Virus record (IMG/VR): IMGVR_UViG_2878528002_000001
Span: 34,473-98,472 of that record
Origin: a virus
Taxonomy: Duplodnaviria; Heunggongvirae; Uroviricota; Caudoviricetes
Direction: 5' to 3' (one strand)
DNA length: 64,000 nucleotides
A program made the position numbers and the translations under genes. Shown piece by piece: positions 24,533-57,997 of the stretch (position 1 is its first letter; every line of letters begins with the position of its first letter). The notes beneath the pieces are model-generated. The model made no database searches. It had not been told where the DNA came from and saw nothing but the letters and a program-made list of their open reading frames with translations.

Positions 24533-25966
24533 TTATAAGGTGATTTTTAGACTTGAATTAGAAATTACAACTCTAGTAGATTTACACATTTTTTCAAATT
24601 GCCTATCTGATTCCTTCTTCAAAGTTTCTTTTGCAGTTTTTGACCCATGATGTAATATAATTTTATTTGTATTGATACTTGTATACATATCGACAAGCTG
24701 CCAGAAGGGGGCATGCCCACTGAGTGATTTCAACGAGTATGATGCACATCTACAAGGATATTCCTTTTGATCAATCGTTATTGTTTTACGTTTGTTATCC
24801 TTCAATAATGATGCTAAACTTCCTTCTGTACTGAATCCCACAAGAAGTACTGTAGCATTCGAATCAGGAATACATCTTTTAAGATGATGTCTGATTCTGC
24901 CAGACTGACACATTCCAGAACTTGAAATAATCAGACATGACTCGTTGCTATCAACCAAATTTTTACTGTCTTCGGATTCCTTTATAAAAGTAAACATATT
25001 ACTTGCCATCATAGCATCGAAGTCAATTTTATCCTGTCCATCAAGACATTCTTCGTAGTCTTCAAAAATCTTAATCGTTAATGGGGAGTCAATATAAATT
25101 TTGGGTTTCCATTCAGAATCTTTATACATCTCATATAGCATAAGTGCTAATTGCTGGCTCCTGGACATAGAAAAACTTGGAATGATAACACGACCATGCA
25201 TTTCATGAATTTGTGTTTCTATAATAGATTTGAATTTATCCAAATCATTTTTTCGTTCTTTAATTCCAGTTTTAATATCAGGTCTGTCTCCATATGTACT
25301 TTCACCAATAACAACATCTGCATATTCGACCTGTTTATATTTGCCAACAAATCTATTACCAACAATTTTATTTCCTAAATCACCAGTAACGAGAAGTGTT
25401 TTTGTTGTTCCGTCAATTGTAAAATATAATTTTATTTGACAACTTCCGAGAATATGTCCTGCCGGAATTAGCTCAAATGCAAGTTCGTCATCTATTACAA
25501 TTTTTTGATTTACTGGTTTTTCAAGAGTATATTCCAACATCTTATATACGTCAGAAGCGGAATATAAAGGTTTGTAATTTTTATTATGCTGAGAATTAAT
25601 CACCAAAACATCGCGCTCATTGATGTAAGCAGAATCCAATATCATGTCTTTTAAAATTTGTTTTGAATTTTCGGATACAATAGTCGCGCCACGAAACCCA
25701 TCCCTATATAATTTAGGAATTAAACCGACATGATCAATATGATTATGAGTTACAAAAACAAAATCAATATCTTTTGCCTTGAATTCTTTGAATTTTCTAT
25801 TATTTACAAGATAATCTTCATATCTGTCATTTGTCTGATGCATTCCGCAATCTACCAAAATTCTGTGATTAAATGTCTCAATATAAATAAGACTCCCTGT
25901 TACATCCTCAGATGACGGAGAGTCTACAAAAGAAATTTTTACTCTGTTTTTCTTTTTTGCAGCGAT
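24533..25966 (-). CDS. beta-CASP / MBL-fold nuclease (CPSF3/Ysh1-like); probable ATC start
   Basis: THNHIDH, AGHILGS, TGDLG, GESTYG, SSSGMCQSGR, SGHA, LHHG motifs. The frame is open upstream of the track start (25858) to ATC 25966 behind AAGGTGG. Confidence 0.85.
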   Translation of the reverse strand: MAAKKKNRVKISFVDSPSSEDVTGSLIYIETFNHRILVDCGMHQTNDRYEDYLVNNRKFKEFKAKDIDFVFVTHNHIDHVGLIPKLYRDGFRGATIVSENSKQILKDMILDSAYINERDVLVINSQHNKNYKPLYSASDVYKMLEYTLEKPVNQKIVIDDELAFELIPAGHILGSCQIKLYFTIDGTTKTLLVTGDLGNKIVGNRFVGKYKQVEYADVVIGESTYGDRPDIKTGIKERKNDLDKFKSIIETQIHEMHGRVIIPSFSMSRSQQLALMLYEMYKDSEWKPKIYIDSPLTIKIFEDYEECLDGQDKIDFDAMMASNMFTFIKESEDSKNLVDSNESCLIISSSGMCQSGRIRHHLKRCIPDSNATVLLVGFSTEGSLASLLKDNKRKTITIDQKEYPCRCASYSLKSLSGHAPFWQLVDMYTSINTNKIILHHGSKTAKETLKKESDRQFEKMCKSTRVVISNSSLKITL

Positions 25967-26178: not shown

Positions 26179-26212
26179 ATCCTTATTATTATATTTATCC
26201 GATTGGATAGAA

Positions 26213-27897: not shown

Positions 27898-30747
27898 TCA
27901 GGCTTCCATTTCCGAATTTACCTGTTTTTTTGTAATTTTATATGGAATATTGAACATTTCTATGTCATTTCCGTTCTCTTCAATTTGTAAAATTTCTTTT
28001 CTGGATTGAATGATTGCTTTATTAAAACTATCATTTCCACAAAGAAATAATACTTCCAAAAGCAAATTTTTGATTTGGGAATTTTCTTTATCTTCGATTG
28101 AAGACAATAGACGGTACAAAGTAGAGAATCCGATTGTTTCACTTTCGATATCGGCAATCAAACGTTCTCGCAGGATATTAACCTTTTCAGCTTTTTCTTT
28201 TGGTGTTCCTGAATCACTACCATAAATCTTTTTCCGTTCATTAATAAATTTCTTTAATATACTGTAAATCTTGTTAATCTGTTTTTGATTAACTCCAGAT
28301 GTGCGGAAAAGGGAATTATCAAGTATAGATACAAATGGTAGCCAATCTTTTTTATAAGAATTCTTTATTTTAAATCCATTGATAATTGTCTGCAAATAAT
28401 CCATGGATGTATGGTACTTGCAATAATGTTTCTTATCTGGATTGTAATATCCTTTTTGCTTTGATATATGAGAAAAGAAATGTGGCATCTTTTTCTTGCC
28501 TTTAATAAGATCACCATTTTCATTTTCTTCGTACTCTCTTAAAAACTCTTCGTATTTTTTCCGAAGTTTATCTAATTCCTTACCATTATCAATATCGAAT
28601 TCTTTCTTGGCTTTGTCAATCTCAATTCCAGACATTACATCTAATTGACAGATATCATAGTATAAATCCTTTATGTCATCATATGTTGAGCCATGATACA
28701 TACGATCCCATAGCAACGAATTTAATTCCTGTGAAAGATTTACAATTTCTCCAATTTTATTATCAGAAGTTTTGATATCCAAATCCGCCTGTTGCTCTGC
28801 TGTGTAATATCTTTTAATCTTACGGGCAGAAACAAAAGAAGTAGGAGTTTTAAATAAATGATAATTTCGTTTGGCAGCACGAATTAGCTTTTTGTTATCC
28901 GTAATCATTACCGTATCTGAGTCAAAATCAGCTCCAGATAGTCTCTGTAATACATTTTCTCCAATAGAGTTCAAACAGATAATCTCATCTGTCATGTTTA
29001 CATAACAGTCAATCAATTTATTTTCTGTGTTATATGGGAGCCAAATGTTCCCGATAGTAACATGAGGACTTCTACTAGCCAGTAAAGTCTGATTATATGC
29101 AAATCTCGTACTATGTATATTGCCAATGCCAATTTGACTTTTGCCATCAAACTTCCCAATTGCCTGTTGCAGCATTTCAATCGGATTTCCAAGAAGAGTA
29201 GAGTAATTGCCATTTACATATACATGTCCGTTTTTCAAATTCTTATAATAAGAACGTAATAAATCAACCAAAAAGTCATGGTAATACTTTGTTTTGGTAA
29301 AATTATCATTTACAGACATGAGAGAATATACAACATCATTTTTACTGGACATTGGACGTTCCATCAATTCAACATCATTTACATCAGGATATTTGATAAA
29401 ATGACGTACCACTTCTGGACGATCGCGAAGCATCTGCGCAAAATCAAGAGATTCTTGTAAAAATTCTCTAACCTCATCCTTTGACATCTGTAAAGTATTG
29501 ATAAGCTGATAATGTGTTTGAACCAATCTACCACCAAAGAAATGTGTCTTTTTATCATGCTTAACCACTCCAAAATTCGGATATAGATTATCCAACCAAC
29601 TATCCCATGTACTAAATTTTAAATATTTGATACTGTTAGGAGTGGTAATTAATTTTACGTCTTCTATTTTCGTAGCTCTAGTTTTACCATTCAACTGAGA
29701 AATGTCCGTAATGTTATTATCCTTAAACCATTGCTGAATATTGCAATTAAAACAACAAGACTTAAACATCAGATTTCTAAGAAGTACCATTCCGTATTCA
29801 GTATAATCACCAAACAAAGAAATATCCATAAGAGACTGACCGTCCCATATTGTATTTGTGATTTCACATTCTTTTTCAGAAGTCTTTAGCCAACCATTTT
29901 CATCATGAGTCTCAATAACTGTTTCTTCAAATGTACTATCAAAATCGTCTATTAAAAGAATATTTTCAGGTTTAATCGGAAGAGTGTCAATAATACTACT
30001 TGATGGAAGAGCGATATATCCTTCATAAGCAGCCAAATCAATTTCCTGACCTTCTTCAAGACGAATCGCGCCAGAACTAAAATTAAGAATCGGTTTAAAT
30101 AATGTTTCGTTTATAAAAAGACACTTGCCAACACGAGCTGAACCAGTAGATCTTTTCATGCGACAATATTTTGTTCCATTGCACACAAATCCATTTTTAT
30201 ATAATTCATTACGCAACTGTGAATTAGTTTTTAATACTTTTGGCGCACCTTTCATCTTATAAGTAATATATTTGCCATTTTTATCATTAACATATGTTGT
30301 CACAAATGGGCGGGATAATTTTTCGTTAATTTCTAAAATCGGCTCACCAATTTTAACACCAATAATATCTCCATCACTATTTTTAGCAATACAATCTTCA
30401 AATTCTAGATCTCTATAATCATATCCAAATTTGACAAACGTATTTTTGTTCATCTGGTTCCATTCTTTTACAGAATATTTGAATGTAAGATTTATTACTT
30501 GTGTGGAGTATTTATGCTTTTTAATTGTAAACATAAAATCATTACGGCGATATTGTTTATAATAAATATCCAATAATTCTATCAAATCGAGACTATAATC
30601 AAGTGTGTTGATGAATTTACGTAGATTATAATTTCCATCTTTTAATTTAAGATTATATCCTTCATCATTCCTACTATAATAATGAGATGCAAGATAAATA
30701 TCTTTTGCGTCTATACTTGGTATGTATACACCTGTATTATTTTCCAT
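27898..30747 (-). CDS. yonO: YonO-like single-subunit DNA-dependent RNA polymerase
   Basis: 949 aa; RSPHV and LQRLSGADFDSD (DxDxD) catalytic motif of the RdRP-like double-psi-barrel family; heads the late region as in SPbeta. Confidence 0.85.
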   Translation of the reverse strand: MENNTGVYIPSIDAKDIYLASHYYSRNDEGYNLKLKDGNYNLRKFINTLDYSLDLIELLDIYYKQYRRNDFMFTIKKHKYSTQVINLTFKYSVKEWNQMNKNTFVKFGYDYRDLEFEDCIAKNSDGDIIGVKIGEPILEINEKLSRPFVTTYVNDKNGKYITYKMKGAPKVLKTNSQLRNELYKNGFVCNGTKYCRMKRSTGSARVGKCLFINETLFKPILNFSSGAIRLEEGQEIDLAAYEGYIALPSSSIIDTLPIKPENILLIDDFDSTFEETVIETHDENGWLKTSEKECEITNTIWDGQSLMDISLFGDYTEYGMVLLRNLMFKSCCFNCNIQQWFKDNNITDISQLNGKTRATKIEDVKLITTPNSIKYLKFSTWDSWLDNLYPNFGVVKHDKKTHFFGGRLVQTHYQLINTLQMSKDEVREFLQESLDFAQMLRDRPEVVRHFIKYPDVNDVELMERPMSSKNDVVYSLMSVNDNFTKTKYYHDFLVDLLRSYYKNLKNGHVYVNGNYSTLLGNPIEMLQQAIGKFDGKSQIGIGNIHSTRFAYNQTLLASRSPHVTIGNIWLPYNTENKLIDCYVNMTDEIICLNSIGENVLQRLSGADFDSDTVMITDNKKLIRAAKRNYHLFKTPTSFVSARKIKRYYTAEQQADLDIKTSDNKIGEIVNLSQELNSLLWDRMYHGSTYDDIKDLYYDICQLDVMSGIEIDKAKKEFDIDNGKELDKLRKKYEEFLREYEENENGDLIKGKKKMPHFFSHISKQKGYYNPDKKHYCKYHTSMDYLQTIINGFKIKNSYKKDWLPFVSILDNSLFRTSGVNQKQINKIYSILKKFINERKKIYGSDSGTPKEKAEKVNILRERLIADIESETIGFSTLYRLLSSIEDKENSQIKNLLLEVLFLCGNDSFNKAIIQSRKEILQIEENGNDIEMFNIPYKITKKQVNSEMEA

Positions 30748-32798: not shown

Positions 32799-34088
32799 GT
32801 CAACTACCCACAAGCTAAAGCTTGATGGGCTTGTAGCTCGATTAGACTTCGCAATTACATTTAAGGGCGTAATTGCTTATTCCAAAGCATAAACTACCTA
32901 TCAGGACTAGAGCCAGCCCCTAAAATTCTTTTTCCCTCTGTTAATATATTTTTTGCAGCGTTTATATCTCTATCGTGATGAGTATGACATTCAGGACAAG
33001 TCCATTTTCTTATATATAATGGTTTCTTTCCAGTAATACAACCACAACAAGAACATATTTGAGAACTCGGAAACCATTTATCAATTTTTACAACAGTTCT
33101 TCCTTTATTCTCCGCCTTATATTCCAACATATTAATAAACATAGACCAACCAACATCTGCAACAGATAAAGCTAAATGATGATTTTTCATCATACCTTTT
33201 ACATTCAAATCTTCCAAAGATATAACTTGGTTCTCGTTAGTAATCTTATAAGAGATTTTATGTAAATAATCTTTTCGTTGATTTACAACACGTTGATTCA
33301 ACCTAGCAACTTTCATTTTCTGTCTGTTATAATTATTACTTCCTTTTGTCATTTTACTTAACTTTCGCTGTTCTTTTTTTAGCTTAGGCAAATTTTTTCG
33401 CAATGATTGTAATACAGGAAATTTAATTCCATCAGAACAAATCGCTAAATCAGTTAATCCTAAATCTATTCCTATTTCTTTGTTTACTTTGGGCAAAGTT
33501 TCATCTGTTTCAGCTTCTTTCCAAAGTATAGAAATATAAAACTCGTTAGTAGGTGTCATGGAAATAGTACAAGATTTTACAATTCCAATTTTATGCCTAT
33601 GATTGACAATTTTTATCTTTCCTAGTTTAGGTAGTTTTATTGTTTCATCATCAATAGGAAATCCATTAGCAATCATGGTTTTATAACTATTTTTAGAACA
33701 TTTCTTACTCTTGTATTTAGGAAATCCTTTATTTGGTTGTTTAAAAAATCCAGAAAATGCAGATTGTAAATCAATTTGAGTAAAACATAGAGCTTGTCCA
33801 TCTACTTCTTTCAACCATTCATATTCCTTTTTATAAAAAGCAGGTGTGTTTATCTTGCTTTTCTTGTTTTCTTCGTAATATTTGATATTGTCGGAGAGTG
33901 CTTGATTCCAATACCATCTGCAACAACCAAAAGTTTTAAGTATTAACATTTTTTGTTCATCTGTCGGAAAGCATCTAACTTTATATGCTTTTATATTGTT
34001 CACCTCCTTCAATATAATATTCTCTCTTTGTTTTTTTTATTATTTTATTACAATTCCTCCCATCAGCTAAAACTAATGGGATTCTTTG
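32799..34088 (-). mobile_element. IS200/IS605-family TnpB-only element (1290 bp)
   Basis: LE begins CAAAGAAT then CCCATTAG-N6-CTGATGGG hairpin; RE has the CCCATCAAGCTTTAGCTTGTGGG hairpin and ends TAGTTGAC; removal restores the flanking ORF; no tnpA. Confidence 0.9.
32894..34012 (-). CDS. tnpB: TnpB RNA-guided endonuclease
   Basis: [13 protein letters not shown]; RuvC GIDLG, LEDL, DRDINAA; Zn finger CSCCG/CPEC; all catalytic residues present. Confidence 0.95.
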
Positions 34089-37454: not shown

Positions 37455-38033
37455 TTATAAATTAATATCATTGAAATAATTGTAATCATTCTCAATTATA
37501 TATTGGGATATATCATATATATTATTTTTGTCTCGGTACATCATATCTTGTAATTTATACATTTTTATAGGATCATTTCCATGTTCTTTTATTTGCCAGT
37601 ATATAAAAGTCTTTCTTAATGATTCAGTGGTTATGTGTATTGACAGATTATATTTTTTCGTAAACCTTATATACCATCCGTTAAAAGTCGCAATATTCAT
37701 TTGTCGTTGATTATATCCAAATACATATACATATAATTGGTAATCATTGCTTATTTCTATATTATGTTGTATTGCCTCTTTACATGCTTTATTTAAATAC
37801 AATTTATATTCATTTCTTTCAATGTAATCTTTAATGGTATAATCGTTATTTAAAATATCATACCACTGTAAAGATAATAAATCTTTTGATTTTAACCCTA
37901 AATTAATACCTAATATAAAATATAATAATTGTTTTTCTCCAATTATAGGCTTTAGTGTTTGAAAATAAGCTTTTAATAAATTTATATATTCTTTTGACTT
38001 GATACTATCGGCTTTTTGTTGGGTATTACTCAT
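37455..38033 (-). CDS. Degenerate tyrosine-recombinase catalytic-domain protein
   Basis: GINLGLKSKDLLSL (R replaced by K), TESLRKTF (H replaced by E), no LGH box. Confidence 0.65.
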   Translation of the reverse strand: MSNTQQKADSIKSKEYINLLKAYFQTLKPIIGEKQLLYFILGINLGLKSKDLLSLQWYDILNNDYTIKDYIERNEYKLYLNKACKEAIQHNIEISNDYQLYVYVFGYNQRQMNIATFNGWYIRFTKKYNLSIHITTESLRKTFIYWQIKEHGNDPIKMYKLQDMMYRDKNNIYDISQYIIENDYNYFNDINL

Positions 38034-38223
38034 TATATGTTATGCCTTTATTGTCTAAATCAGATTTTATCAATGCTTTAATATAGGCTGTTTTAGTTTG
38101 ATCTGTATTTTCTATATATCGTATTAACCTATTATATTCTTTTGTTTCTTTTTCTGTATATTTCAGTCTAACAACATTACATTTATTATTATAATCTCTC
38201 TGACTTTTCGCATTATATGCCAT
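38026..38223 (-). CDS. Small ribbon-helix-helix-like regulator
   Basis: Likely start MAYNAKSQRDYN (GGAG RBS); ...QTKTAYIKALIKSDL; track ORF 38026..38286. Confidence 0.6.
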   Translation of the reverse strand: MAYNAKSQRDYNNKCNVVRLKYTEKETKEYNRLIRYIENTDQTKTAYIKALIKSDLDNKGITYNE

Positions 38224-38268
38224 TGTACACACTCCTTTAAATGATTTATTTTTGTACATAATAGTCAA

Positions 38269-38364
38269 ATAGGAGCACCTATTCAACGTATAAATTATGC
38301 ATACTGCTAAAGTTTAATAAATATAGGAGCACCTATTGACTGATAGGGGCACCTATGATATAGT
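38269..38364 (+). promoter_or_regulatory. Triple palindromic operator plus sigmaA promoter
   Basis: ATAGG-RGCA-CCTAT at 38269, 38323 and 38343; TTGACT(38336)-17-TATAGT(38359) with extended TG. Confidence 0.75.
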
Positions 38365-38637
38365 ATAACCATCAACAAGAGATACACAAGTATCAAACAG
38401 TTGATGCAACCTACATCATGTAGGACGTAACCGTCAATCTAATAAGTCCAGAGCGCACAAAATGAACATTGACAACTAAATTTACACCAAGCCAAAAAGT
38501 AGGATGGCTCCTCGTTTCAGGGATGTGGAAGACGGTCACTACACGAAAATGAAACAAGCGCAAGGCGGATACATCACCCGTAAAAATGCGCTATAGCAAA
38601 TACATAAGTTGAAATACATAAAAGGAGGTATTATCCA

Positions 38638-38727
38638 ATGTATACAGATTTCGGATACATCGGGAAAACGGATGGCATCGAATACGCAACTGTCGATGAA
38701 GCACTAGAAGCCAATCCAAACAACTAA
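38638..38727 (+). CDS. 29-aa peptide
   Basis: AAAGGAGGT RBS; MYTDFGYIGKTDGIEYATVDEALEANPNN; followed by a GGGGACT-GAAA-AGTCCCT hairpin. Confidence 0.6.
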   Translation: MYTDFGYIGKTDGIEYATVDEALEANPNN

Positions 38728-38759
38728 CAACGGGGGACTGAAAAGTCCCTCATTAGTAA

Positions 38760-39315
38760 ATACCTCCATAAAGATTGTAACATTTTTATAAAGTGCAGTC
38801 AACCGCACTATAAAAAAGAATGTGATGTTCACGACAGCAACAAAAACTTGCAAGGGTAGCAAATTGACATGATAGCAAGTAAAACAAAAGTCAAACCAAA
38901 AGACCACGCGACAGGTTAAAAATGCAAAAAGTCGGTTGTCCGTATCCGATCAAAAAACGGCGGTATGGTAAAACCCGTAAACGTTTCCTGTCCGTAGCCG
39001 TGGCACGGAGGACAAAAAACCACACGGAAGTTGTAAACAATAATACAACTTGCCACCGATGAAAAGACGGTGCAAAACAAAAAAGTGGGATAGTACAGAT
39101 TCTTAGAACGTGAGCGGATCACAATAAAAACCGCGACTGTACAACTTGCAAGTGATTAATGATTAACCGCTTGCTTTTTTGTTTTGACTTTGCAAGTCAT
39201 TTCTAACAAGCAAAGCAACGTGAAAGACGGGCAAAAACATAAGACCTGGATGGGCAGTAAGTAGTAGTCAAGTAACGTTGTTTCTAATGTTGGTAAATGT
39301 GGCTTGCAAAGATGA
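38760..39315 (+). ncRNA. Large multi-stem structured ncRNA candidate (ROOL/GOLLD-like in size and context)
   Basis: No plus-strand ORF; at least 8 nested stems, including a perfect 13-bp helix (39073-85/39174-86) and a ~22-bp helix with G:U pairs (39188-209/39288-311). Confidence 0.7.
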
Positions 39316-39366
39316 GAACAAAAAAGAGAACTAATAAATACGACAGATAAAAGGGAGGAATATAAA

Positions 39367-39615
39367 ATGTTAGATTATAGTTTTTTCTACGATTTAGCGA
39401 AATATTGTAATGATAACTGGAAAGGTTGCTTTACTGAAAAAGAAATAGCCGAAAATGCATATGAGTATTTAGTATCATATGAATATAGTGTTAAAAATGG
39501 TAGTCCAAACTACACTATTAGAACACTAATTCAAAATTTACAGGAAGATATAAAAAATGATTCTCAATCAGAATCATCTGATTATTTGATTATGTTAACA
39601 AGTGAATTAAATTAA
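39367..39615 (+). CDS. Hypothetical early protein
   Basis: 82 aa; GGAGG RBS. Confidence 0.65.
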   Translation: MLDYSFFYDLAKYCNDNWKGCFTEKEIAENAYEYLVSYEYSVKNGSPNYTIRTLIQNLQEDIKNDSQSESSDYLIMLTSELN

Positions 39616-39717
39616 TCAAATAATTTATAGGCAGTAACATAGCACACAAGCGTTTTTTCTTGTGTGCTTTTTAGTACCTATAAACAAAGATCATAAATTT
39701 AAGGGAGAAAATAAACC

Positions 39718-40056
39718 ATGAAAAAGAGAATCATTAGTACATTAGTTACCGCAACAGTAGCACTTACAGCTTTTTGGGGCGGTCAGTTGACCAACGCGAC
39801 AGTCCAGGCAAATGAAAAGAAATATATCGCAGTCGAGGACATTATAGACTGGAATACGGATGGGAAAGAATTATCACTTGCATTACAGGACGATACAGAA
39901 GCATACGCGTACAAGTCGCAGAACGTATATAAACCGGAAAGAAAACAGTTTCTTGCATTGGATGAGATCGCGGATGTAAAGGCAACGAAAACTGGATTTG
40001 AGATCATCACGGCGGACGGTGAAATCTACTATTTCGACAGACAGGAGATAAAATAG
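39718..40056 (+). CDS. Putative exported or membrane protein
   Basis: N-terminal MKKR + hydrophobic stretch + VQA, signal-peptide-like. Confidence 0.6.
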   Translation: MKKRIISTLVTATVALTAFWGGQLTNATVQANEKKYIAVEDIIDWNTDGKELSLALQDDTEAYAYKSQNVYKPERKQFLALDEIADVKATKTGFEIITADGEIYYFDRQEIK

Positions 40057-40350: not shown

Positions 40351-40866
40351 ATGATGAGAATTTATTTAACAAATTTAGGAAAATACAACGAGGGCGAATT
40401 AGTAGGCGAATGGGTGGATTTACCGATAGAAAAAGAAGATCTTCAAGAGGCATTTAAAAGAATCGGCATTGACGGAAAACAATACGAAGAATATTTTATA
40501 ACGGATTATGAATGCGATTTTTACAAGATTGGAGAATATGAAAGCATCACGACATTAAATGAAATCGCGGAAAAAATAGACAATCTCGATGAAGAACAAG
40601 AACAGGTTGTAAAAGTATTAATGTCCGAATGTGGCTACGATCTGGATGATGCTATCGAGAAAGCCGAAAGGGGTGATTATAGAATCTATAGTAACTGCGA
40701 TAATATGACAGATGTTGCATACATAGTTATTGAAGAATGTGGATATCTGGATAATGCACCGGAATTTTTAACTAGATATTTTGATTACAAAGCGTATGGG
40801 CGTGATCTTGGTATCGAGGGAAGTTTTTATTTTTTAGATAATGGCAACTGTATAGAAATCTATTGA
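40351..40866 (+). CDS. ardA: ArdA antirestriction protein
   Basis: RIYLTNLGKYNEGELVGEWVDLP, EYFITDYE, YFDYKAYGRDL; highly acidic. Confidence 0.92.
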   Translation: MMRIYLTNLGKYNEGELVGEWVDLPIEKEDLQEAFKRIGIDGKQYEEYFITDYECDFYKIGEYESITTLNEIAEKIDNLDEEQEQVVKVLMSECGYDLDDAIEKAERGDYRIYSNCDNMTDVAYIVIEECGYLDNAPEFLTRYFDYKAYGRDLGIEGSFYFLDNGNCIEIY

Positions 40867-40971
40867 TACATATACTTGTGACCAGTTAGAGCGCGTCAAG
40901 TATGGCGCGTTTTATAGTGTTCACAAGAACACCAACACACATAACACGGGAATTCAAGAGGAGGACGGAAA

Positions 40972-41157
40972 ATGGCAAGAAATAAAATTGAAACTGTAAT
41001 GAGCTATGATCAGTGGGAACAGGAACACAAGAGACGGACTAAAAAGGCGATACACGATACTATTCAGGGACTCACAAGGGATATCGCAACAGCAATGATC
41101 ATTCTTGCCTTGCCTCTTGGCATGGTGGCGCATTTCCTTTTATCAACGGGATATTGA
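40972..41157 (+). CDS. Small membrane protein
   Basis: 61 aa with C-terminal hydrophobic helix; GGAGG RBS. Confidence 0.55.
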   Translation: MARNKIETVMSYDQWEQEHKRRTKKAIHDTIQGLTRDIATAMIILALPLGMVAHFLLSTGY

Positions 41158-41175
41158 TAAAAAGAAGGTGTCACC

Positions 41176-41340
41176 ATGGGGAAATATCAAAGAAACAAAC
41201 AGAACGGAAAAAACGACACATCATTTAAACGATCATATGCCGGGATTTATGAGAATGCCGACATGGAGAACAGACAGACTCGGGAAGAACGGGCGGAAAA
41301 TTTTGATTTGAAAAAGTGGTTGCGTACTACAGATTTATAA
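41176..41340 (+). CDS. 54-aa hypothetical protein
   Basis: AAGGTG RBS; MGKYQRNKQN...; not in track. Confidence 0.5.
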   Translation: MGKYQRNKQNGKNDTSFKRSYAGIYENADMENRQTREERAENFDLKKWLRTTDL

Positions 41341-41354
41341 TTGGAGGAAAGGAA

Positions 41355-41570
41355 ATGCCGAAATTAGATCAATATATATATGATGCGATCGTTGGTTATA
41401 TGGACGATGATATCAGAGAGCGCGTACATAACTACATGGCACCGTGCAACAACGAAGAATTTTTAATAGAATACTGTGCACAGGATCGCAGCTTTGAAGA
41501 ACTGTTAAAAGCGGAATTTCACATTGATATGTGGGATTATCCGGAATTTGTCAATAGAATTTGCAACTGA
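41355..41570 (+). CDS. Hypothetical protein
   Basis: Start MPKLDQ after GGAGG; track 41316..41570. Confidence 0.6.
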   Translation: MPKLDQYIYDAIVGYMDDDIRERVHNYMAPCNNEEFLIEYCAQDRSFEELLKAEFHIDMWDYPEFVNRICN

Positions 41571-57610: not shown

Positions 57611-57997
57611 ATGGATCTTCACAGATATGATATAGTCGAGGCTGAAATTAAAATGACAACACCGTCTGGATCAGTACAGAAGAAAAGACGTCCATATGTA
57701 ATCGTAGGCAATGAGCAAGGAACCAAGACGGCTCCTACGGTTATTGCAATGCCTTTGACTCATATTATAAAAAGAACGAACCTTCCGGTTCACGGATGTA
57801 TTAAGGCGGATGGTGATACTGGACTGGCTTATTATTCAATGGTGCTTGGTGAACAGCCTTATACGCTGGACAAACAATATGAAGTCAAAAGAAAGCTTGG
57901 TTCAGTAGTCGATACGAAACAGAAAAATCTAATTAATAAAATCTGTTGGAATACTATGTTTTATGGAGAAAATATAAACTGGGAGGCAATATTATGA
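57611..57997 (+). CDS. MazF/PemK-family endoribonuclease
   Basis: DIVEA...SVQKKRRPYVIVGNEQG..APTVIAMPLT...LPVH; catalytic R and T present. Confidence 0.8.
   Translation: MDLHRYDIVEAEIKMTTPSGSVQKKRRPYVIVGNEQGTKTAPTVIAMPLTHIIKRTNLPVHGCIKADGDTGLAYYSMVLGEQPYTLDKQYEVKRKLGSVVDTKQKNLINKICWNTMFYGENINWEAIL

What the first reader, a model, noticed from the sequence alone, without database searches (positions are those of the whole stretch)
38760..39315. ~550-nt ornate non-coding RNA candidate at the start of the early region
Seen: an ORF-free plus strand with dense nested pairing. Helices: ACATT..AGTGC/GCACT..AATGT (38780-38823); TGTCC/GGACA around TCCGT/ACGGA (38989-39014); AAGTTGTA/TACAACTT; CACCG/CGGTG; CAAAACAAAAAAG/CTTTTTTGTTTTG (39073/39174) enclosing GTACAG/CTGTAC and GCGG/CCGC; CTTTGCAAGTCATTTCTAACA with TGTTGGTAAATGTGGCTTGCAAAG; AAGCAACGT/ACGTTGTTT. 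G:U wobbles support the plus strand. Known: ROOL and GOLLD are large structured RNAs of Firmicute phages. Inference: a ROOL-like or new large-RNA class; I cannot assign it from memory.
Basis: partly seen in the sequence, partly recalled or inferred. Interest (0 to 1): 0.72.

Follow-up and report, generated by a model that had tools for sequence, protein, structure and literature searches.

The report
Swappable RNA beads in phage leader
The supposed single giant RNA is really part of a string of small, interchangeable folded RNA pieces at the front of a gut phage's first-expressed, defence-blocking genes; one piece looks like the RNA antidote of a bacterial suicide defence, so the string may be an RNA toolkit against host immunity.

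Summary
The helices exist, but this is not one 550-nt ornate RNA. It is the 3' part of a ~960-nt leader (38371-39330) between the early promoter and an anti-defence operon (ArdA, AcrIC5) of a 175-kb SPbeta-like gut prophage. In 37 homologous arrays (457-1158 nt) the leader is a mosaic of 30-185-nt modules that come and go blockwise. Only the promoter, a 5' stem and a 3' basal stem (31/37) are shared. Several modules are compact pseudoknots with compensatory changes. No Rfam family matches. One 36-nt module (38925-38960) is the genome's best hit to a pseudoknot-aware model trained on natural ToxI antitoxins, although a standard covariance model misses it; these phages lack ToxN. UACAUA, the strict MazF site, is the most enriched hexamer across arrays (18 vs 2.9), and 13/14 relatives encode a MazF homologue. 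Best reading (~0.5): an early cassette of decoy RNAs, partly freed by MazF-type cutting. Main rival: a cis-acting antitermination or MazF-sensing leader. Expression is not shown. Earlier notes of this scan report analogous arrays in T4-like and Kayvirus phages, not in this family.

The parts
38270..38355 (.). Three copies of a 12-bp imperfect palindrome (38270, 38324, 38344) around the promoter; probable repressor operators
   Evidence: relatives carry different palindromes at the same places; role inferred
38336..38364 (+). Early sigma-A type promoter (extended -10); predicted start about 38371
   Evidence: -10 box and downstream motif conserved in the homologous arrays
38370..38406 (+). 5' stem closing a variable insert
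   Evidence: sequence; 3' arm found 21-257 nt downstream in 30 of 32 arrays that retain the start
38407..38637 (+). Upstream modules of the same leader, outside the finding; two UACAUA sites at 38601 and 38615
   Evidence: replaced by other modules even in near-identical phages L122/L126
38638..38727 (+). 29-aa small ORF with strong SD, itself an optional module, followed by a hairpin (38732-38751)
38790..38826 (+). Module M1: 5-bp stem with conserved loop and A-rich tail (probable pseudoknot); a second allele has a different stem and the same loop and tail
   Evidence: read by eye; no pair count run
38846..38895 (+). Module M2: predicted H-type pseudoknot; second stem only partly kept in other alleles
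38898..38928 (+). Module M3: compact pseudoknot with 1-nt first loop; A-U to C-G change in stem 1
38925..38960 (+). Module M4: ToxI-like pseudoknot (stems 38933-35/38946-48 and 38940-43/38957-60), in about 22 of 37 arrays
   Evidence: negative with covariance model
38961..39145 (+). Block M5-M7: ~185-nt multi-helix domain with two pseudoknots, inherited as one block in 8 arrays
39148..39174 (+). Module M8: optional hairpin, deleted in L065 and L072
39174..39330 (+). Module M9: near-universal basal stem (39174-39196 with about 39300-39326) enclosing an exchangeable interior (16 nt in L105, ~100 nt in others)
39367..39615 (+). First gene after the array (82 aa, no family); differs between relatives
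39641..39676 (+). Intrinsic terminator after the first gene
40351..41570 (+). Context: ArdA anti-restriction gene (40351-40866) and AcrIC5-like gene (41316-41570) in the downstream early cluster
57611..57997 (+). Context: phage MazF/PemK-family gene with two UACAUA sites in its own 5' region (57582, 57606)

Best explanation
The finding is the 3' part of a modular non-coding cassette at the head of the phage's early transcript. SHOWN by comparison: a promoter-proximal leader made of short, independently folding, swappable RNA modules held between a conserved 5' stem and a conserved 3' stem, upstream of anti-defence genes. INFERRED: on infection or induction host RNA polymerase makes an abundant ~1.3-kb RNA (38371 to the terminator at 39641). 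The modules act in trans as decoys that occupy host RNA-binding defence proteins; M4 would neutralise a ToxN-type (type III toxin-antitoxin) nuclease as an orphan antitoxin mimic. Host or phage MazF cuts at UACAUA, and cuts in A-rich linkers or the long 3' stem, would part the modules from each other and from the mRNA. Module turnover reflects the host-phage arms race, like the turnover of the small anti-defence genes next door. Odds: modular structured-RNA array 0.9; M4 is a ToxI mimic 0.5; UACAUA sites are used for processing 0.5; no target identified for the other modules.
For: Blockwise presence/absence and 457-1158 nt length range; 5.9 kb of non-redundant sequence with mean folding z -2.9. 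Covariation: block 38959-39177 has 97.6% of cells paired and 8 compensatory pairs, 2 in a pseudoknot, against 25-45% for slid controls; M2/M3; M4 one compensatory pair. M4 fits the grammar of ToxI units upstream of 31 toxN genes, ranks first in the 174.7-kb genome on both strands with a model trained on 50 natural units only (17.4 bits, next 11.5), and stays near-invariant beside unrelated neighbours in a distant phage. No toxN in this phage or 13 relatives. ToxIN/CptIN occur in gut Clostridia (PMC3401426). UACAUA is the top hexamer of the non-redundant arrays (18 vs 2.9 expected, max 9 in 300 shuffles; near-cognates and reverse complement not enriched); it is the strict MazF site in Bacillus and Listeria (10.64898/2026.08.06.743204). 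MazF homologue in 13 of 14 relatives. ArdA and AcrIC5 downstream.
Against: A covariance model of the same ToxI units does not pick M4 (8.4 bits, E 9.4) or any array. Four of 60 shuffled genomes reach 17.4 bits somewhere, and M4 falls to 14.0 bits without the closest ToxI subfamily. No cognate host antitoxin with M4's sequence was found. The 8 compensatory changes in M5-M7 all come from one divergent allele. Single pseudo-ToxI repeats of phiTE did not protect (PMC3475682). No UACAUA lies inside 38760-39315 in this phage, and MazF-site excess is a known general trait of SPbeta-like transcripts (10.1101/2023.04.27.537455; right arm here 0.8/kb).
Confidence: 0.5

Rival explanations
1. Cis-acting control leader: the modules modify RNA polymerase (put/EAR-like antitermination), stabilise the mRNA, or make the early transcript a MazF sensor that biases lysis versus lysogeny, as MazF does in SPbeta/phi3T.
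For: Position between promoter and first gene; a strong terminator at 39641-39668 with no convincing plus-strand promoter behind it, so ArdA and AcrIC5 need read-through; near-universal 3' stem just before the SD; UACAUA sites often sit directly before SD sequences; MazF restricts SPbeta-like phages.
Against: A cis regulator would not need 5.9 kb of interchangeable, unrelated modules; L105 keeps a 457-nt array with a 16-nt interior in the 3' stem, and L167 lacks the stem. The two readings can coexist: stem in cis, beads in trans.
Confidence: 0.25
2. Trans-acting small RNAs aimed at housekeeping rather than defence: sponges for host RNA-binding proteins or nucleases, or antisense regulators, for host takeover.
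For: Most modules have no identified target; recurrent motifs (CUUGCAA, UAAGUCC) suggest shared protein sites; Kayvirus lncRNA regions of similar size are abundant and of unknown function (PMC7698491).
Against: Rapid module turnover fits variable targets such as defence systems better than conserved housekeeping targets (inference); M4 resembles ToxI.
Confidence: 0.14
3. A single ~550-nt ornate RNA (ROOL/GOLLD-like) folding and oligomerising as one unit.
For: Length, helix density, prophage location.
Against: No Rfam match; not inherited as a unit; no conserved long-range helix joins the modules; no tRNA nearby.
Confidence: 0.04
4. DNA-level feature or neutral debris: protein-binding palindromes, recombination scars or decayed genes whose hairpins are incidental.
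For: Whole-region folding z is modest and no better on + than on -; palindromic CTTGCAAG recurs.
Against: Compensatory changes in pseudoknot stems and G.U-type changes valid only on the plus strand; strand-specific UACAUA excess.
Confidence: 0.05
5. Template array for a reverse transcriptase, like the UG27 ncRNA arrays of prophages.
For: Variable array with gain and loss of units, and one ~155-nt long hairpin (10.64898/2026.09.22.753630).
Against: No RVT_1 match in the complete provirus; units here do not share one fold; no RT gene adjacent.
Confidence: 0.02

Closest known systems
pseudo-ToxI of Pectobacterium phage phiTE (Blower et al. 2012, PMC3475682) and ToxI antitoxins of ToxIN
   Same: Phage-borne, toxin-less, ~36-nt H-type pseudoknot resembling a type III antitoxin unit; same stem and loop spacing as natural units
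   Different: One copy embedded among many unrelated modules rather than an expandable tandem repeat; Gram-positive temperate phage; no cognate toxin known; activity untested
Kayvirus lncRNA1/lncRNA2 regions (PMC7698491)
   Same: ~550-nt phage non-coding regions; lncRNA2 is driven by an early-type promoter; function unknown. Unchecked notes of this scan call them modular and UACAUA-punctuated
   Different: Those lie beside tRNA genes in lytic Staphylococcus phages; this one heads the anti-defence operon of a temperate phage; sequence similarity not seen (phage collection gave one unrelated-to-Kayvirus hit)
ROOL and GOLLD large ornate RNAs (PMC12286853)
   Same: Size, helix density, prophage location
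   Different: Those are single conserved folds, often near tRNA islands, forming nanocages; this is a mosaic with no Rfam match
MazF control of SPbeta/phi3T lysis-lysogeny (10.1101/2023.04.27.537455)
   Same: Large SPbeta-like temperate phage with excess MazF sites on its transcripts
   Different: Reported for genes; here the excess peaks in a non-coding leader (about 3/kb vs 0.8/kb), and the phage encodes its own MazF homologue
UG27 reverse-transcriptase ncRNA arrays (10.64898/2026.09.22.753630)
   Same: Prophage array with gain and loss of structured units
   Different: No RT here; units are heterogeneous in size and fold

Membership tests
ROOL / GOLLD / OLE | Match to the Rfam covariance model | tested here: not met
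   No hit at gathering score in the window, none relevant at E<=10 in 38200-39800, none at E<=0.05 in 18 homologous loci
ROOL / GOLLD / OLE | One conserved fold inherited over its whole length | tested here: not met
   Blockwise presence/absence
ROOL / GOLLD / OLE | Often near tRNA islands | tested here: not met
   Nearest tRNAs at 26212 and 58611
ROOL / GOLLD / OLE | RNA-only multimer (cryo-EM) | not testable with these tools
   needs experiment
ToxI antitoxin / pseudo-ToxI (module M4) | 31-46 nt H-type pseudoknot, 3-4 bp stems, loops 3-4 / 1-2 / variable, A-rich flanks | tested here: met
   loop 3 is 7-8 nt, at or just over the upper edge of natural units seen
ToxI antitoxin / pseudo-ToxI (module M4) | Significant similarity to natural ToxI units | tested here: inconclusive
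   First in genome with pseudoknot-aware model; not significant with covariance model or Rfam
ToxI antitoxin (true ToxIN locus) | Tandem repeats, terminator, then toxN | tested here: not met
   Single copy; no PF13958 in this phage or 13 relatives. This excludes a TA locus, not a mimic
ToxI antitoxin / pseudo-ToxI (module M4) | Binds and neutralises a ToxN | not testable with these tools
   needs experiment
UG27 ncRNA array | Adjacent RT with two accessory genes | tested here: not met
UG27 ncRNA array | Units of ~135-167 nt sharing one fold | tested here: not met
   Modules of 30-185 nt with different folds
RNA anti-CRISPR (solitary CRISPR repeat mimics) | Similarity to a host CRISPR repeat | tested here: inconclusive
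   No Rfam CRISPR-repeat family hit; host repeats could not be fetched
put/EAR-type RNA antiterminator | Suppresses downstream terminators in cis | not testable with these tools
   A terminator needing read-through exists

The most novel reading that the evidence does not exclude
Large gut prophages carry a reprogrammable 'RNA anti-defence island': one early transcript of many swappable decoy RNAs, each aimed at a different host RNA-binding immune protein, cut into units by a MazF nuclease that the phage borrows or encodes. Each unassigned module would then point to a host defence ribonucleoprotein, known or unknown.
Probability: 0.3. Interest if true: 0.9.

Novelty: new variant of a known kind. 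Interest (0 to 1): 0.72.

Why it matters
Known RNA-based counter-defences are few and single-purpose (pseudo-ToxI, RNA anti-CRISPRs). A hypervariable cassette holding about 6 kb of distinct structured modules across one phage family gives a ready library of candidate RNA inhibitors and baits for finding their host targets. It also ties two open questions together: what abundant phage non-coding regions do, and why SPbeta-like phages keep MazF sites and MazF genes. Cultured lysogens exist (GCA_003471125.1, GCA_003474255.1 carry the same integration-site gene), so it can be tested directly.

Tried and rejected
Rfam on window, region and homologues: nothing. Plasmid and phage BLAST with the leader or M4: chance hits only. 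The one genome-contig scan returned three chance matches, so no host genomes could be searched; host loci were not held. Covariance model of ToxI units missed M4. A second ToxI-like module seen by descriptor in L092/L104/L108/L118 scored under 8 bits in the trained model, so it is not counted. Expression: no RNA holder listed; two doubtful RNA runs gave four short contigs in the leader, which cannot show transcription. Resemblances from memory to preQ1-I (M1), c-di-GMP-I (M9 interior), Cas13d repeats and lacO (39110-39125) were not backed by Rfam and are dropped. CptI of E. rectale shares two short words with an upstream module of relatives, but the pseudoknot is not reproduced. The energy comparison used a wrong register; one search corrects it. 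One search timed out. Supplements with antitoxin or viral RNA lists were not held, so overlap with the candidates of PMC10690425 is unchecked. Literature searches found no description of this locus.

Full report
Setting. The window lies in a complete 174.7-kb provirus whose left end is a host ppdK gene also found in two cultured isolates; an earlier unchecked note names the host as Blautia. A 949-aa gene with a weak RdRP-family hit and a divergent integrase-fold gene recall YonO (my knowledge) and the MrpR repressor (PMC10516654) of SPbeta, so I call it SPbeta-like by inference. The finding sits where coding switches from minus to plus strand, downstream of a sigma-A type promoter at 38336-38364 flanked by three palindromes, and upstream of small genes including ArdA and AcrIC5.

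Observation. All named helices are present. The stretch as a whole folds only modestly better than shuffles (z -1.94 plus, -3.00 minus). Rfam gives nothing. One helix is mis-assigned because the boundary was drawn at 39315: the U-tract at 39174 pairs with 39315-39326 (probability 0.99), a stem found in 31 of 37 homologous arrays, whereas the partner at 39073 occurs in 8.

Homologues. A BLAST hit in a 176-kb faecal phage covered only the last 177 nt and the promoter. Pattern scans on the 3' stem and on the start-site motif brought in 36 further arrays. All that are complete at the 5' end begin with the same promoter motif, and most end in the same basal stem just before a Shine-Dalgarno site. 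Between these the content differs: 457-1158 nt, with window segments present or absent as blocks. Even phages with the same downstream genes swap the 38461-38582 segment (L122, L126). The interior of the 3' stem is itself exchangeable, down to 16 nt (L105). Removing redundancy leaves 26 segments, 5.9 kb, mean folding z -2.9. This is a mosaic array, not one RNA.

Structure of the modules. A scan for compact pseudoknots with an A-rich third loop finds three in the finding (shuffle mean 0.6; 6 of 200 reach three), more than in any other 556-nt tile of the window. In block 38959-39177, 52 pairs are kept in 97.6% of cells with 8 compensatory pairs, two in a pseudoknot stem; slid controls give 25-45%. 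All eight come from one divergent allele, so they are not eight independent events. M3 and M4 each show one compensatory pair; M2's second stem is only partly kept. The basal stem shows U-A to U.G changes that work only on the plus strand.

ToxI likeness of M4. I fetched 31 toxN loci from viral contigs and read their antitoxin units. They run: A-tract, G, CGG, short loop, 4-6 bp stem, 1-2 nt, CC(G/A), A-rich loop, stem partner. M4 (38925-38960) follows this, and shares its first 11-12 nt with one ToxI subfamily. The base before CGG varies freely among M4 alleles, as in natural units. My descriptor was written after seeing M4, so I ran two blind tests. A covariance model with one stem did not recognise M4. 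A pseudoknot-aware model trained on 50 natural units ranked it first in the genome on both strands (17.4 bits; next 11.5; held-out natural units mostly 14-30). Four of 60 shuffled genomes reach that score somewhere, so the weight comes from its lying in the 1-kb leader on the sense strand; without the closest subfamily it is still first at 14.0 bits. M4 is in about 22 of 37 arrays and nearly invariant in a distant phage with other neighbours. None of 14 phages has toxN. Verdict: built like ToxI, membership inconclusive, cognate toxin not found.

MazF sites. In the non-redundant arrays UACAUA is the most enriched of all hexamers (18 seen, 2.9 expected, at most 9 in 300 shuffles), while its three near-cognates and its reverse complement are not. 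That is the strict cut site of B. subtilis and Listeria MazF. The sites tend to lie just after stems or before SD sequences. The phage encodes a MazF homologue with two such sites in its own 5' region, and so do 13 of 14 relatives. Limits: this phage has only two sites in the leader, both upstream of the finding; the specificity of host and phage MazF here is unknown; and SPbeta-like transcripts are known to be rich in MazF sites generally, although the arrays hold about 3 per kb against 0.8 per kb on the right arm.

Mechanism. Shown: a modular, covarying, plus-strand RNA array at the head of an anti-defence operon. Inferred: it is transcribed early, probably as a ~1.3-kb RNA ending at the terminator at 39641, is cut into units, and the units act as decoys for host RNA-binding defence proteins, M4 for a ToxN. 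I give this 0.5. The main rival (0.25) is a cis-acting leader for antitermination, stability or MazF sensing; the terminator without a following promoter supports it, the large interchangeable repertoire does not. A mixed case is plausible.

Comparison and novelty. The closest tested precedent is phiTE pseudo-ToxI. Kayvirus lncRNA regions are the closest in size and are abundant. ROOL, GOLLD and UG27 arrays fail their membership tests. I found no paper on this locus or on such an early-leader array. Earlier unchecked notes of this scan describe analogous module strings in T4-like and Kayvirus phages; I read them after forming the ToxI and MazF readings, and they are not independent proof. I rate it a new variant of a known kind, interest 0.72, with a 0.3 chance that it is a general, multi-target RNA anti-defence cassette.

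Noticed in passing
window 57611-57997 (+): MazF/PemK-family gene with no obvious antitoxin directly upstream, its own promoter-like region and two UACAUA sites in its 5' UTR; a PF02452 gene is present in 13 of 14 related phages.
   Followed up: partly
window 27898-30747 (-): 949-aa protein with weak RdRP-family hit, probably a YonO-like phage RNA polymerase; no PDB sequence match.
   Followed up: partly
window 24533-25858 (-): Phage-encoded beta-CASP metallo-beta-lactamase nuclease; a candidate RNA-processing enzyme.
   Followed up: no
window 37455-38286 (-): Divergent pair: 192-aa integrase-fold protein (MrpR-like repressor?) and a ~65-aa protein that is replaced in relatives together with the operator palindromes, suggesting immunity groups.
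   Followed up: partly
window 38638-38727; L035, L065, L093 arrays: Small ORFs of 29-50 aa with strong SD and a following hairpin occupy one slot of the array; several look like one divergent family.
   Followed up: no
L062, L072, L092, L105 arrays, first 250 nt: A ~140-nt multi-stem module with several divergent alleles and apparent pseudoknots, absent from the window; no Rfam match.
   Followed up: no
L032, L035, L068, L073, L095 arrays, slot after M4: A ~110-nt three-stem module with a GAAA-capped hairpin and visible compensatory changes replaces block M5-M7.
   Followed up: no
window 39186-39188 / 39311-39316: Internal loop of the basal stem has tandem GA on both strands, resembling a kink-turn; not kept in the L092 allele.
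   Followed up: no
window 39110-39125: Sequence resembles the lac operator (from memory); it forms a pseudoknot here and is probably coincidence.
   Followed up: no
L129-L159, L177-L182: ToxI arrays of gut toxN loci often have non-identical repeats with a fixed first stem and a covarying second stem; L177-L179 carry about one unit only.
   Followed up: partly
window 32894-34012 (-): TnpB/IS605-family gene.
   Followed up: no
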